Below are positions 27,862-33,372 of a stretch of DNA of 64,000 nucleotides, in pieces; position 1 is the stretch's first letter, and each line of letters opens with the position of its first letter. A model generated the notes under the pieces. That model was not told the origin of the DNA, ran no database searches, and saw nothing but the letters and a program-made list of their open reading frames with translations. Source of the DNA: Chrysomallon squamiferum (lineage: Eukaryota > Animalia > Mollusca). The stretch is from the NCBI GenBank assembly GCA_012295275.1, contig CM022678.1, forward strand, positions 14,136,001-14,200,000, read 5' to 3'. The translations under genes were made by a program, and so were the position numbers.

Positions 27862-28756
27862 ATCTTATTTATACCAAATATGCACGCAGTCATTTGTTTT
27901 ATTTCTTCTTCTTCTTTTTTTTATTAAAGGGAAAATACTCTGCCTGGCATTGACATTTATCACATATGTATTAATTTGTAAAAAAAAAAAAAAATACTAA
28001 TAATAATATAAATAAGAAAGATTTATTTTAATTTATGTTTAATAATTGAAAAACTGATAATATAATTCGTTCGTTGTTTTGTACCGCTGTTTATTTAGAA
28101 TGTGTACAATTTTGCAAAGTGATTAAATACATTCTTTTGTTCTCTCATAGCTAGTTTCGATTTTTCCACAGAACACGCCCGTAAATATAGGCATTGAAAG
28201 CTCGGTTATGAGATATTTTGTTTCTTAATAGAATAAAAATAATAATAATAATAATAAAACTTTCTAGAATACATTATAATTATTCATATATATTAATTAG
28301 TTATAATTCGAATTCATGTACGCATTAATGAATATTCTAAAAAAATAATTTTCTAAATTAAATATACAAATATTATTGCAATTTTATAAAACATAAAAAT
28401 ATCAATAATAAAATCATGTAAACTGGGTTATTTTTAACGTTAATGTTCTGCATTCAGATTCCATTTTCACCGTAAACATTTTTGATGAACTGAAACATGA
28501 ACGTGTTGATTTTTTTGTAAATTAATTATTAAATAAATGAATCATGATTAATTTTGTTTGTTTTTCTAGTGTTATTATTATTTTTTTTTTCCTCTGCAGG
28601 ACCCACTAACAGAGTACAGGTTCTTTTTATGTTTAACTGAGAGGTAGACTGTTACCTCGGTTTAAAGCGGTAGCTTAGTGATGTTTCGGTTTATTCGGAA
28701 GTACCAGACAGGGAAGATTTCTATTTTTGCAATATCATGTGACATCAGTGGACGTG
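27862..28756. promoter_or_regulatory. Probable bidirectional promoter / 5' UTR region between SLC22A18 (-) and RAB32 (+)
   Basis: The two ATGs diverge ~0.9 kb apart; there is an ETS-like CGGAAGT near 28696 and locally more CpG. Confidence 0.5.
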
Positions 28757-31712
28757 ATGGTAAGTTTGATAATGTTGGAACAATTTTATATTGACATTTA
28801 ACAGTTGTTTCTCATTACCTAAAATTGTGAATTAGCCATTCGGAACAGTTTGTTTAAAACAAGTTGGTAGGTGGAAAATAATAAAGATATAAAATGAAAA
28901 TATATAAATAAAGTAATAAAAACTTTGGAGGGCAAAAAAAGTATTAAGATTACACTTTAAAGCAATCTTCATGTTTAATATGTTTGAGATAGATGGAAAT
29001 AATTCACTGACGAATAATGTTCAGATTTGAAGGCTTGCTCAAATACTGTAATATACTAATATATATACTAATATAGGTATATATATATACACACACACAC
29101 ATGTACACTACTTGATATATATGTATCAAGTAGTATACAAAACATTGTTTGATGGATATTTTTAGTATTAACTGAGTTGCAACGTAACAAATCATGTAAC
29201 TTGAATATGACTTTGACTCTAATGTGTAATGACTGATGAATATCCATCATTTAATTGATCATACTTGACTGTCACAAAACAAAACTTAGAGTTAATTAGT
29301 TGAAAATATTTTAAACTTTTTTAATGTAAGTAGAGGCAGTTCTTATTTTTCAGCATTTGTTTGAAAAGTAATGTTATTTCTCTTTTGAAATGTTTGCACT
29401 ACATTTGTAAAGTAAGTTAACAGTTCACAATGCTAATTCTAACAATAGTATTAAATTAAAATATTAACAACAGCCAAAAATAATTAATACTGCTGATATA
29501 AATTAAAAACATTATTTATAAAATTTAAAATATTTAATTTAAAAAAATAAATATTGATAGAAATATTTTTCCTATTAGTTTGATTATAGATATATAAAAC
29601 AAAAGAATTTAGGTTCCCATGGCAAAAAGGAGATAACTCTGAAACTGCTGTTACTCGGAGATTTGTCAGTTGGAAAGACATGTATTTTAAGAAGATATGT
29701 TTTTAATTTCTTCACCCACATACAGCCTACTGTATCCTTAACAGCAGAAGAAAATAACATATTTAGTCAATTACAATTCTGTATAAATGTCAGAAGAGAT
29801 TTTAGTTGTTATTGTTTTGTTTGTTATTCATATTTATTTGTTTTTTCTTTTCTTTCATATGGTTAGACTAATGTCTAGAGAGCATGTTACTAAACCACAT
29901 ACATACATGTCAAGACAGCTATTTGTAATTAACTTTAATATATGTATTTGTGTGTGTGTGTGTGTCTGTGTGATCAAACTTAAATCACACATGTACATTC
30001 TTCTTGTAAACATTTTCTTTAAATTGCCCAGTGACTTAAATCTAAGAAAAGCCTACTTACTAACTTACTAACCACTGTATGTATGATTAGTATATATAGT
30101 TGCTGTATGGTTTGCATTTGTTGGTTCCTTAACTACCAATTTTCACTGCAGAGCTAATAAAATCTACACATACTTTTAAAGATTGTGCTTTACTTCTTAT
30201 AAATATTTTACGCATTTAATTAGTGATTGTCCCATCATTAGGAATACTGACATAACAAATATATAGTTTGTATATGATCAGGTTTTATTACATTACCATT
30301 ATTAAGTCCAATTCATGCAGAAGTCCTGAATGTTTTGTAACAGTGTATATGTATCCCTTACTTGAAGATAAATTGAGTCATTTTTGATTCAAAGTGTGAT
30401 CACTCAAGGACCAAAAGTTTTGAATGGTGACCAATACTTTGGTCAGTTAAAATAGACAGGAAGATAAGCTGGGGTTACAGTGGCAAAAGTCTGACCTGTT
30501 CTTGATCTGTTTTTGGAATTTGTTGGTTTATTTTTTTCAGGCAAGTGGTGGTGATAAAAAAGAACATCTGTACAAGATCCTGGTGATCGGAGAGCTTGGA
30601 ACAGGAAAAACTAGCATCATCAAACGTTACGTTCATCAGTTTTTTTCACAGCATTATAGGGCCACAGTATCCTTAAATTTCACCTGCTAAACCCAAATAT
30701 TAAAGCTATTTATGTTTCAGCAAACTTTAAAATCATAAATTGAAAATAAATTAAAATGAAAATAATGTATTACAAAAATTTTGATGACTGTTTTTAATTT
30801 CTCTTTTTAATTCTTATTTATTTATTGGCTTTATTATTATTTCTCTTGTTTTCAAATTTATTACAACTTTTTAAAAAAGAGTCTTTTGCATAAAATGTAA
30901 TGTGCTCTCTAGATTATATTCTAAGGGAAAAAGACTTTCTTTCTTTTGAAATGACCCAGTTAAAATAAATGGTACAGTTTAACAGAAAAATAAATACAAC
31001 TATATTGGATAATTGATCCCTTGATAAATCTGTATTAAGTTTTTAAAAATACTTTATCAGTTGATTAAAAATGAACAATAATATGAAATATCTTAATTTT
31101 CTCTTTTAAGATAACAACTACCCTATCATCTGAGGTCATAGTAACATAACACTACATACTCTACCTGCATTTTTTTCATGTTTTCTTTATTTATTGCTAA
31201 TTTAGAATTAATTTTTTTTTATAGAGATTTACAACATTTTTAAAGTGATAGCAATTAAGTTTAGTGAGATAAATTTGTCTTTTGTCAGTATTTAGACATC
31301 TGTTTTAAACTCATTCCTAAAAACGTTTGATAAAATATCACCTCACTTTATATTCTATATCTAGTTGAAAGGTCAGTACCCTGAACCACTGAAGATGTAT
31401 TAGATAAATGCTGATACAGTAGCTGTACTCTCTCTGTTATGATTAAACTACATCGATGGCAAATAAAAAACATCTTGTATAAGAAATAACAATAGGAACT
31501 TTCCTTAACACATTAAGATTGGAGTAGACTTTGCTCTAAAGGTTTTGAACTGGGATGCTGACACATTGATTCGTCTACAGTTATGGGATATTGCAGGTAT
31601 TCAAATATATATATTAAAACAGCATTTAAAAGATAATAAATTAACTTAAATATAATAATATAACAAAATGGCTTAAGCATTCTTATTTGTTATTTATTTC
31701 TATGTTTTTTAC

Positions 31713-31755
<43 letters not shown>

Positions 31756-33372
31756 ATATTAAAAAATTATTATATCATGAATAAGTGTTTTATTTTTAAA
31801 ATCAGTTGTGATTTCAAAGCATATATATTATTTATTTATATCAGGTCAAGAAAGGTTTGGGAACATGACGAGGGTTTACTACAAAGAGGCTGTTGGAGCT
31901 TTTGTTGTGTTTGATGTTACCCGTGCTTCAACATTTGAGCTTGTTACAAAGTGGAAGAATGATCTTGACAGTAAAGTTCAGCTTCCTGACGGCAGCCCAG
32001 TTCCATGTCTGCTCTTAGCAAATAAGGTTTTTTTTAGCATTATACTTAAATAATATATTTCTATTTTGTAATAATTGATCTGTACCATATTTCTTTGATT
32101 AAGCTTCACATTCAACTAACATATTTCTGTCATAATGACAAGAAGAAAAATTCCAGGTTTTTCCCTCTGCATTCAAGCTGAGCCAAAACATATTTAGAAA
32201 TTATAATGGATGTAGTGGTACTGTATTCTGCATACTTATAAGTTGACTTAGTGTAAGTATACAGACATTACAAAGTAAATCCAAATGTATGTTAAGTCTT
32301 GTTATAAAATATATTTTTCATTTCTCACAGTTGTTTGACAAGAGTACCAGCTTGTTTTAATCTAACTTCATATTTGAAATTATCCTGACAAATAAACATT
32401 CTGAAAGATTAAAAATATCATCCATTTGCCTATTTATATGACAGTTTTTGTGTAGTGTAAAATATCAGTTATGGTAAAAGTTATTTATATTGATATATTA
32501 ATAATATTGTTTTTCTGTTTATTTATATTGATATGTCAATAATATTATTTTGCCCTTTATTAAATGTTTTGTTACAGTGTGACCAGGCAAAGGAAGGTTT
32601 AGTAAATAACTCTACTCAGATGGATGAGTTCTGTAAAGACAAAGGTTTTATAGGATGGTTTGAGACATCAGCAAAAGAAAACATCAACATAGATGAGGCA
32701 GCTCGGTTTCTTGTTACAAAAGTAAGTAAAACTCACAGATTAGTGTATTCAAATTATATTAAAAACTTAAAAATTATTTAAGAGATACTGTCATATACTG
32801 GACTAGCAATAAGTGTTTTTGTTGTTTATTTTTTTAAATAAGTTTTGAAGACTCTTGTCATTAAAACTTTACTAATACATTATCTTTTTAATATTATTTG
32901 ACATTAACAAATGTTAAATAAAGTTACACTATTAAACTGCATTTTTTTATTGTATTTTTCTACTATTCTTCTTTACTTTTTTCAATTTATCTTTATTTCT
33001 TTCTTTACTGAATTATTTTACTTCCTTTAGGTGAAATATTACACATTTTTTCATTAGTTGTAATGATTTTTATATTTGTTTTCAATTCATCTTAGAAGAA
33101 AAAGTATTCTGTAAATAAAATAAACAAAAATAACTGTTTTTATTGAATTGCATTTATTTTAATTACTGTTTAGTTTAATTTGCATGTTTTCTTTTAGTTA
33201 TTTTGTTCAATGTTTAATGCACTACTTGTTAGCTTAAATTTTGGTTTATCTGTAGATATTGGAGAAAGATCAAACATTAAAGTTAGGAGAACAAGAAAGT
33301 GACCCAGACAGAATACTTGTCAATGGTGACAACAGTCAAGGAAGGGAAGAAAAAAAATCAACATGCTGCTAA
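28757..33372 (+). CDS. RAB32: Ras-related protein Rab-32/38 (canonical isoform), 6 coding exons, 216 aa
   Basis: Exons 28757-28759 (ATG only), 30541-30666, 31518-31596, 31845-32026, 32578-32721, 33256-33372 (651 nt). Motifs GELGTGKT, RATIGVDF, WDIAGQE (Rab32/38 signature), NKCD, ETSAK and a C-terminal CC prenylation motif. Confidence 0.96.
29579..29731 (+). CDS. RAB32: Alternative (duplicated) RAB32 exon 2A encoding a variant P-loop/switch I
   Basis: Phase-0 acceptor tttttcctattag; 153 nt open frame FDYRYIKQKNLGSHGKKEITLKLLLLGDLSVGKTCILRRYVFNFFTHIQPT; ends at a phase-0 U12 donor GTATCCTTAA at the position homologous to canonical exon 2B. Confidence 0.8.
30667..31517 (+). other. U12-type (minor spliceosome) GT-AG intron in RAB32
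   Basis: 5' site GTATCCTT at 30667; branch point TTCCTTAAC at 31501-31509; AG at 31516-31517 with no polypyrimidine tract. Confidence 0.95.

What the first reader, a model, noticed from the sequence alone, without database searches (positions are those of the whole stretch)
29579..31596. RAB32 has two swappable P-loop/switch-I exons, predicted mutually exclusive through U12/U2 spliceosome incompatibility
Seen: after the ATG-only exon (28757-28759) come two homologous phase-0 exons. 2A (29579-29731) reads ...KKEITLKLLLLGDLSVGKTCILRRYVFNFFT-HIQPT and 2B (30541-30666) reads ...KKEHLYKILVIGELGTGKTSIIKRYVHQFFSQHYRAT. Each has a U2-type pyrimidine-rich acceptor and ends in a perfect U12 donor (GTATCCTT at 29732 and 30667). 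Either can join the U12 branch point/acceptor (TTCCTTAAC 31501, AG 31517) to give ...TIGVDF. Known: a U12-donor/U2-acceptor hybrid intron cannot be spliced; this is how vertebrate JNK exons 6a/6b are kept mutually exclusive. Inferred: 2A is highly diverged yet keeps an open frame, GxxxVGKT, the G2 Thr and the rare U12 donor, which suggests selection. One gene would make two Rabs with different nucleotide- and effector-binding surfaces on the same body and prenyl tail.
Basis: partly seen in the sequence, partly recalled or inferred. Interest (0 to 1): 0.9.

Follow-up and report, generated by a model that had tools for sequence, protein, structure and literature searches.

The report
Swappable switch exon in snail Rab32
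A snail gene for the trafficking switch protein Rab32 carries two copies of the exon that codes its GTP-binding loop; the second, much-changed copy is also kept in a related deep-sea vent snail and likely yields a rare variant predicted to ignore Rab32's normal activator, with a mismatch between the cell's two splicing machines likely keeping the copies apart.

Summary
Exons 2A and 2B are phase-0 duplicates, both end in U12 donors, and a U12 branch point precedes exon 3. RNA contigs (3 runs, one study) show 2B joined to exon 3 in 3 of 3 runs. 2A joins exon 1 in one contig (16 letters). No 2A-to-exon-3 joint was seen: all 3 runs read through the 2A donor. The vent snail Gigantopelta aegis has an annotated isoform with an orthologous 2A on the same body (22/34 core identity, same one-residue deletion), so 2A is old and under selection; it is the only such protein among 189 screened. 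In both species 2A shortens switch I and lacks the Y[R/K] motif that the activator BLOC-3 needs. Verdict: a lineage-restricted, probably minor isoform using known JNK/Tmem87b-type wiring, which this scan noted in four other genes; the Rab32 case was not found in print.

The parts
28689..28759 (+). Exon 1 (3' part; true start not mapped), coding only the ATG; followed by U2 donor GTAAGT at 28760
   Evidence: Sequence; RNA contig of run X3 covers 28689-28758 and joins 2B
29560..29578 (+). Acceptor of exon 2A: short pyrimidine tract and AG, no U12 branch point
   Evidence: one X1 contig carries 16 loose letters equal to the end of exon 1 at this place
29579..29731 (+). Exon 2A, 51 codons: divergent beta1, P-loop, alpha1 and switch I; one residue shorter in switch I; no Y[R/K] motif
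   Evidence: orthologous exon in G. aegis isoform X1 (P0124)
29732..29739 (+). U12 donor of 2A (GTATCCTT)
   Evidence: read through, not spliced, in one contig of each of 3 RNA runs
30125..30161 (+). Internal U12-type acceptor inside the intron between the exons: branch point TTCCTTAAC 30125-30133, AG 30150-30151, then one Ser codon, two stop codons (30155-30160) and the intron's only AATAAA (30156-30161)
   Evidence: (chance 0.9% for the motif, 0.3% with a YAG); no RNA joint seen
30511..30540 (+). U2-type acceptor of exon 2B (T-rich tract, CAG)
   Evidence: joint from exon 1 in 2 of 3 RNA runs, loose end like exon 1 in the third
30541..30666 (+). Exon 2B, 42 codons: canonical Rab32 P-loop and switch I with the YR motif
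   Evidence: 41/42 identical to G. aegis X3; in the main contig of 3 of 3 RNA runs
30667..30674 (+). U12 donor of 2B (GTATCCTT)
   Evidence: joint 30666>31518 in 3 of 3 RNA runs
31501..31517 (+). U12 branch point TTCCTTAAC and acceptor AG of exon 3
31518..31596 (+). Exon 3 (end of switch I, interswitch, start of G3)
31845..32026 (+). Exon 4
32578..32721 (+). Exon 5
33256..33372 (+). Exon 6, coding part, ending in CC and stop

Best explanation
This snail Rab32 gene holds an old tandem duplicate of exon 2, each copy with a minor-spliceosome (U12) donor; 2B is spliced into the standard Rab32 mRNA, and 2A likely gives a rarer full-length isoform with a shortened switch I that is predicted to bind GTP but escape activation by BLOC-3, the two exons likely being kept apart by U12/U2 incompatibility. 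Steps. Shown: the anatomy; exon 1>2B>exon 3 splicing; the orthologous 2A exon in a G. aegis gene model; loss of Y[R/K] and of one switch-I residue in both species; a U12-type donor at this intron position in other Rab32 loci. Weakly shown: exon 1>2A (one contig). Inferred: the duplication copied exon 2 with its U2 acceptor and U12 donor, so the intron between the copies cannot be removed end to end; the major spliceosome picks one acceptor from exon 1 and the minor spliceosome then joins that exon to exon 3; 2A output is kept low by its weak acceptor, slow use of its donor and, possibly, the internal U12 acceptor that leads to a stop. Predicted from human data: without Y[R/K] the 2A isoform is a poor BLOC-3 substrate while sharing switch II, interswitch and prenyl tail with 2B.
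For: Anatomy. G. aegis X1 (P0124) and X3 (P0123) share an identical body and differ in this exon; the 2A core is 22/34 identical between species but only 16/34 (here) and 17/34 (G. aegis) to the species' own 2B. Of 189 proteins with the span, only P0124 has 17 instead of 18 residues between GKT and the G2 Thr, as 2A does. 2A versus 2B DNA: synonymous sites saturated (pS 0.81-0.85), pN 0.38-0.39, flanking introns not alike (p 0.86 and 0.98), yet donor intact. Neutral simulation: chance of keeping frame, motifs and donor in two lineages 0.035 at 0.05 and 0.002 at 0.1 substitutions per site per lineage (rates assumed). RNA. Double inclusion would be in frame (267 aa), so decay cannot guard. 5 of 9 metagenome Rab32-like loci with an intron at this place begin GTATCC. 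Y54/R55 needed for BLOC-3 exchange activity: PMC11947305, passages. P0124 is modelled as a Rab32-like G domain.
Against: The 2A>exon 3 joint was seen in 0 of 3 RNA runs, and in 3 of 3 a contig runs unspliced through the 2A donor. The exon 1>2A evidence is one contig with 16 letters, under the tool's bar of 31. The runs are assembled contigs from one study, found with 2A as the query; other intron pieces appear at like depth (2-4). The G. aegis isoform is an annotation whose read support and genomic splice sites I could not see. Five of the last six switch-I residues differ between the two species, which fits relaxed constraint as well as a new partner. The internal U12 acceptor gives the 2A donor a nearer compatible partner. 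The fold model of P0124 is weaker than that of P0123 (pLDDT 63.5 vs 72.1), though the alignment holds 34 2B-type rows. No biochemical test exists.
Confidence: 0.68

Rival explanations
1. In this species 2A works mainly as an attenuator: transcripts that take it read through the U12 donor or splice to the internal U12 acceptor at 30151, meet a stop and end at the poly(A) signal at 30156 or decay, which lowers Rab32 output instead of making a second Rab.
For: 3 of 3 RNA runs read through the 2A donor, to 29772-30031. Perfect branch point, CAG, two stops and the intron's only AATAAA lie within 37 nt; chance 0.3-0.9% for the acceptor part. U11-driven unproductive splicing is known (USSE, PMC3584512 passages).
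Against: No joint to 30152 and no contig over 30110-30190 (weak, contigs drop rare forms). Conservation of beta1, P-loop, alpha1 and the G2 Thr between species is not needed for an attenuator. The G. aegis model joins 2A to exon 3. Retention of minor introns with flanking major introns spliced is common (PMC6717393 passages), so read-through may be a processing intermediate.
Confidence: 0.2
2. 2A is a decaying pseudo-exon left from a duplication; low-level splicing into it is noise.
For: Low depth; no productive joint seen; 2A evolves far faster than 2B (22/34 vs 41/42); found in one other species only.
Against: Open frame, P-loop, G2 Thr and exact donor are kept while synonymous sites are saturated and the flanking introns have lost all likeness; the exon lengths differ between species by a whole number of codons; neutral survival is improbable.
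Confidence: 0.06
3. Both isoforms are made, but something other than spliceosome incompatibility keeps the exons apart, such as competing RNA pairings or separate promoters in front of each exon.
For: RNA-structure control of such exons is known (search listing). G. aegis X2 starts with residues that look intron-derived in front of 2B, which hints at other 5' ends.
Against: No convincing docking/selector pairing: the 25 longest of 51 inverted repeats are A/T-rich or microsatellite pairs. The same exon 1 end joins both 2A and 2B. The splice signals are exactly those of the JNK arrangement.
Confidence: 0.06

Closest known systems
Vertebrate JNK (MAPK8/9/10) exons 6a/6b with the U2-U12 hybrid intron (PMC1874599, passages; PMC3584512, passages)
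   Same: Duplicated exon between an upstream U2 intron and a downstream U12 intron; the intron between the copies has a U12 donor and a U2 acceptor; the downstream copy with the better pyrimidine tract is the default; proposed origin by duplication of the exon with its flanks.
   Different: Separate origin in a Rab gene of snails; the exons differ in length and are under 50% identical; the intervening intron holds an extra U12 acceptor; use of both exons and tissue control are shown for JNK2, not here.
Mouse Tmem87b exons 11/11a around a minor intron (PMC6717393, passages)
   Same: Mutually exclusive pair upstream of a minor intron, no reads joining the two.
   Different: Equal-length 72-nt exons in a membrane protein; both forms shown by reads and RT-PCR.
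Mammalian Rab6A and Rab6A' (PMC2174079, passages citing Echard et al. 2000; the original paper was not held)
   Same: Exon duplication inside a Rab gene gives two isoforms that differ in partner binding (Rabkinesin-6) and transport step.
   Different: Recalled, not from a call: the Rab6 isoforms differ in about three residues outside the P-loop and no U12 intron is involved. Here the whole G1 to G2 segment is swapped, with a deletion.
Rab32/Rab38 subfamily and its exchange factor BLOC-3 (PMC11947305, passages)
   Same: Body and 2B are standard Rab32 (exon 4 search; best solved matches human Rab32 and Rab38).
   Different: 2A lacks the Y[R/K] motif present in 187 of 189 screened proteins and is one residue shorter in switch I.

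Membership tests
JNK-type U12/U2 hybrid-intron mutually exclusive exons | Two homologous tandem exons in the same phase coding the same protein region | tested here: met
JNK-type U12/U2 hybrid-intron mutually exclusive exons | Upstream U2 donor and U2-type acceptors in front of both exons | tested here: met
   GTAAGT at 28760; no U12 branch point before either acceptor; 2B acceptor used in RNA, 2A acceptor in one contig
JNK-type U12/U2 hybrid-intron mutually exclusive exons | U12 donors after both exons and a shared downstream U12 branch point and acceptor | tested here: met
   GTATCCTT at 29732 and 30667; TTCCTTAAC at 31501; joint 30666>31518 in 3 of 3 runs
JNK-type U12/U2 hybrid-intron mutually exclusive exons | Intervening intron with U12 5' end and U2 3' end that cannot be spliced | tested here: inconclusive
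   Ends are hybrid, but a U12 branch point and CAG lie inside at 30125-30151; no use seen
JNK-type U12/U2 hybrid-intron mutually exclusive exons | Each exon found alone in fully spliced mRNA | tested here: inconclusive
   2B yes in 3 of 3 runs; 2A>exon 3 in 0 of 3 runs here, but modelled in G. aegis RefSeq X1
JNK-type U12/U2 hybrid-intron mutually exclusive exons | No double inclusion | tested here: inconclusive
   No 2A>2B joint in 3 runs, but contigs drop rare forms
JNK-type U12/U2 hybrid-intron mutually exclusive exons | Tissue-regulated choice and dependence on the minor spliceosome | not testable with these tools
   No raw reads or tissue series were offered
Rab32/38 subfamily GTPase | Rab32-type body (G3 to G5 boxes, CC prenyl tail) with best matches to Rab32/38 | tested here: met
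   157/173 identical to the G. aegis body
Rab32/38 subfamily GTPase | G1 P-loop GxxxxGK[T/S] and G2 Thr | tested here: met
   Present in 2A and 2B
Rab32/38 subfamily GTPase | Switch I Y[R/K] motif and 18-residue spacing from GKT to the G2 Thr (2A isoform) | tested here: not met
   2A and P0124 have 17 residues and no Y[R/K]; 2B has both
Rab32/38 subfamily GTPase | GTP binding, activation by BLOC-3, effector binding | not testable with these tools
   Needs biochemistry

The most novel reading that the evidence does not exclude
Vent snails of the Peltospiridae have evolved a second Rab32 from one gene: a splice form with a shortened switch I that is uncoupled from BLOC-3 and can compete with or bypass the normal Rab32 on bacterium-holding vacuoles, dosed by a three-way minor-spliceosome choice (exon 3, a decoy U12 acceptor with stop and poly(A) signal, or read-through). 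It would be a splicing dial on the host's digestion of its symbionts.
Probability: 0.12. Interest if true: 0.8.

Novelty: new variant of a known kind. Interest (0 to 1): 0.52.

Why it matters
U12/U2-locked exon pairs are rare (5 of 629 human clusters, PMC5740500 passages). This one swaps the nucleotide-binding loop and switch I of a small GTPase, a segment nearly invariant across animals (187 of 189 keep YR), and so gives a natural variant for testing the Y[R/K] model of BLOC-3 activation. The BLOC-3/Rab32 pathway acts in lysosome-related organelles and in defence against intracellular bacteria, and peltospirid snails are reported to express lysosome genes highly in the symbiont-bearing gland (PMC7895826 passages), so a lineage-restricted isoform could bear on symbiont control; that link is speculation. 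The internal U12 acceptor would be a new twist on the JNK layout if it is used.

Tried and rejected
No whole genome is held for the window, so no search for other copies in this genome and no DNA-level dN/dS between species. Protein searches with 2A alone (10 candidates, none scored) and with the P0124 exon (1 candidate, none scored) found nothing; they see cluster representatives only, and P0124 itself was hidden as a cluster member. The HMMER search of representatives gave 18 hits; I read 6 of them and none is a 2A orthologue. The absence of contigs over 30110-30190 and the absence of 2A>exon 3, 2A>2B and 2A>30152 joints are not proof, as contigs drop rare forms. Contig depth (2A 3-5, 2B 44-65) cannot rank expression. 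The idea that the internal acceptor is followed by a decayed exon 3 copy was not supported (p 0.13). Whole-region DNA likeness of 2A and 2B is barely above shuffles (110 vs mean 85, max 112 of 500); homology rests on protein and splice signals. Fold models have low confidence in switch I for both forms and say nothing on the deletion. None of the 23 metagenome loci shows a second P-loop exon on the + strand, but most hold little upstream DNA. Literature searches for this case: Rab32 + mutually exclusive + U12, 0 papers; Rab32 + splicing terms, 4 unrelated listings; Rab32/Rab38 + intron + U12, 2 unrelated listings; two G. aegis genome papers have 0 occurrences of 'Rab' in the main text. Supplements were not read; the appendix of PMC5740500 that names its five cases was not seen.

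Full report
Observation. Exon 1 ends in the ATG and a U2 donor. Exons 2A (153 nt) and 2B (126 nt) are both phase 0 and each is followed by GTATCCTT; these are the only two such octamers on the + strand of the window. A U12 branch point at 31501 precedes exon 3. Spliced by coordinates, the 2A form is 225 aa and the 2B form 216 aa, both ending in CC; a form with both exons would be open for 267 aa and one with neither for 174 aa. Nonsense-mediated decay therefore cannot police the choice, and the exons lie 809 nt apart, far above the under-50-nt spacing counted as steric interference in PMC5740500 (passages).

Organism and gene. A search with exon 4 gave 2377 proteins, of which the best 120 were listed; the top hit is Rab32 of the vent snail Gigantopelta aegis, followed by other gastropods. 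The body is 157/173 identical to G. aegis and the last exon 28/39, so the window comes from a different but related snail. No genome is held for the window.

RNA. Four runs hold 2A, three on record as RNA, all three from one study and kept as contigs. Laid on the gene, they show exon 1>2B as a joint in 2 of 3 runs (a loose end like exon 1 in the third) and 2B>exon 3 in 3 of 3, which confirms the U12 intron 30667-31517. For 2A, one contig of X1 begins at the predicted acceptor with 16 loose letters equal to the end of exon 1; this is under the tool's bar of 31 letters but sits at the exact junction. That contig, and one each in X2 and X3, runs through the 2A donor into the intron (to 29934, 29772 and 29879; a further X2 contig reaches 30031). 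No joint from 29731 to exon 3, to 2B or to 30152 is listed; 2 loose ends and 3 pieces were not shown. Other intron pieces occur at similar depth, so unspliced RNA or DNA is in these libraries. Contigs drop rare forms, so the missing joint leaves the 2A isoform unproven here, not refuted. Retention of a minor intron beside spliced major introns is common in mouse (PMC6717393, passages).

Conservation. Opening ten clusters showed that G. aegis RefSeq isoform X1 (P0124) carries a different exon 2 on a body identical to X3. It starts Met-Phe like the 2A form, shares 22 of 34 core residues with 2A against 16-17 of 34 between either 2A and its own 2B, and has the same one-residue deletion. Among 214 proteins fetched (120 representatives and members of 20 clusters), 189 span GKT to the start of exon 3: 188 have 18 residues there and only P0124 has 17; 187 have the YR pair. 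Annotated isoforms of Haliotis, Littorina, Pomacea, Physella, Biomphalaria and Babylonia among these are all 2B type, so 2A looks restricted to the G. aegis lineage, though most of the 2377 hits were not seen. That RefSeq alternative isoforms usually rest on transcript evidence is recalled, not checked. Published dates for the split of two peltospirid genera are about 66 and 116 million years (PMC7736800 and PMC7895826, passages); they give a scale only, as the window's species was not determined.

Selection. Between 2A and 2B, synonymous sites are saturated (pS 0.81-0.85) while pN is 0.38-0.39, and the flanking introns are no longer alike. Yet frame, P-loop, G2 Thr and donor are intact. A neutral simulation gave 0.035, 0.002 and 0.00004 for survival in two lineages at 0.05, 0.1 and 0.2 substitutions per site each (rates and indel share assumed). 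The N-terminal part of 2A cannot be aligned between the species and five of the last six switch-I residues differ, so constraint lies on beta1, P-loop and alpha1, not on a fixed switch-I surface.

The U12 intron is old. Of 23 metagenome loci, 21 are Rab32-like; 9 have an intron at this position and 5 of the 9 begin GTATCC, the other 4 have ordinary donors; 12 have none there. A Biomphalaria gene model reads through the same place as Val-Ser-Phe, the translation of a U12 donor (P0154). A duplication of exon 2 with its flanks would thus have made the hybrid intron at once, as proposed for JNK (PMC1874599, passages).

TTCCTTAAC occurs twice on the + strand and never on the - strand of the window. 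The second copy lies inside the intron between the exons (30125), 19 nt before a CAG. Splicing the 2A donor there would add one Ser and two stops, and the intron's only AATAAA overlaps them. A Markov model of the intron gave 0.9% for the motif and 0.3% with a YAG. It is not followed by a recognisable exon 3 remnant (p 0.13). It may be a decoy that limits 2A, a relic or chance; no RNA shows its use. It does not open a productive 2A+2B route, because the stop comes first.

Protein consequence. In human Rab32 and Rab38 the switch I Tyr and Arg are needed for exchange by BLOC-3 (PMC11947305, passages). 2B has both. 2A has neither, and P0124 aligns to human Rab32 with the Arg deleted. The 2A form is therefore predicted to be a poor BLOC-3 substrate with an unchanged switch II and tail. 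AlphaFold models from a 35-row alignment give a Rab32-like G domain for P0124 (pLDDT 63.5; best match 4cym) and a better model for the 2B form (72.1); switch I is poorly predicted in both, so this does not test the deletion.

Comparison with what is known. It works like the JNK 6a/6b switch and Tmem87b 11/11a. Membership is met for anatomy and inconclusive for use of both exons and for an unspliceable intervening intron. A duplicated exon giving two Rab isoforms with different partners is known from Rab6A/A'. Earlier notes of this scan describe the same wiring in RPB5, PLC-beta4, p38 and JNK3 (unchecked AI notes), and none on this gene. Searches for the Rab32 case found no paper, on the general mechanism with four terms, also gave none. 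The protein is already in RefSeq for G. aegis without comment. No supplements were read.

Verdict. A real, conserved duplicate exon, most likely a minor mutually exclusive isoform (0.68), with an attenuator reading as the main rival (0.2). New variant of a known kind; interest 0.52.

Noticed in passing
window 971 and 6085, - strand: Two further GTATCCTT sites; the one at 971 follows an open frame inside what reads like a monocarboxylate-transporter gene (label from my reading, untested). No branch-point match within 1.5 kb under my pattern.
   Followed up: partly
window 28756: Run X2 shows one other letter just before the ATG in a 10-letter loose end: an allele or an end-of-contig error.
   Followed up: no
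window 31523-31525: A second AG lies 8 nt inside exon 3, within reach of the U12 branch point; its use would shift the frame. The used acceptor is only 9-10 nt from the branch A.
   Followed up: no
P0003 (G. aegis isoform X2): Its first nine residues look like a translated acceptor tract in front of 2B, hinting at transcripts that keep intron sequence upstream of 2B.
   Followed up: no
L003, L005, L007, L008, L009 versus L014-L017: The intron after exon 2 of Rab32-like genes is U12-like in five loci and U2-like at the same position in four, and missing in twelve: a case of minor-intron conversion or loss.
   Followed up: partly
L020:490-662: A Rab32-like locus with an intron at another place in exon 2 and none at the usual one.
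   Followed up: no
P0008 cluster and others (Haliotis, Littorina, Pomacea, Lineus, insects): Many Rab32 isoforms differ by N-terminal extensions spliced onto the same acceptor as 2B; alternative 5' ends are common at this gene.
   Followed up: no
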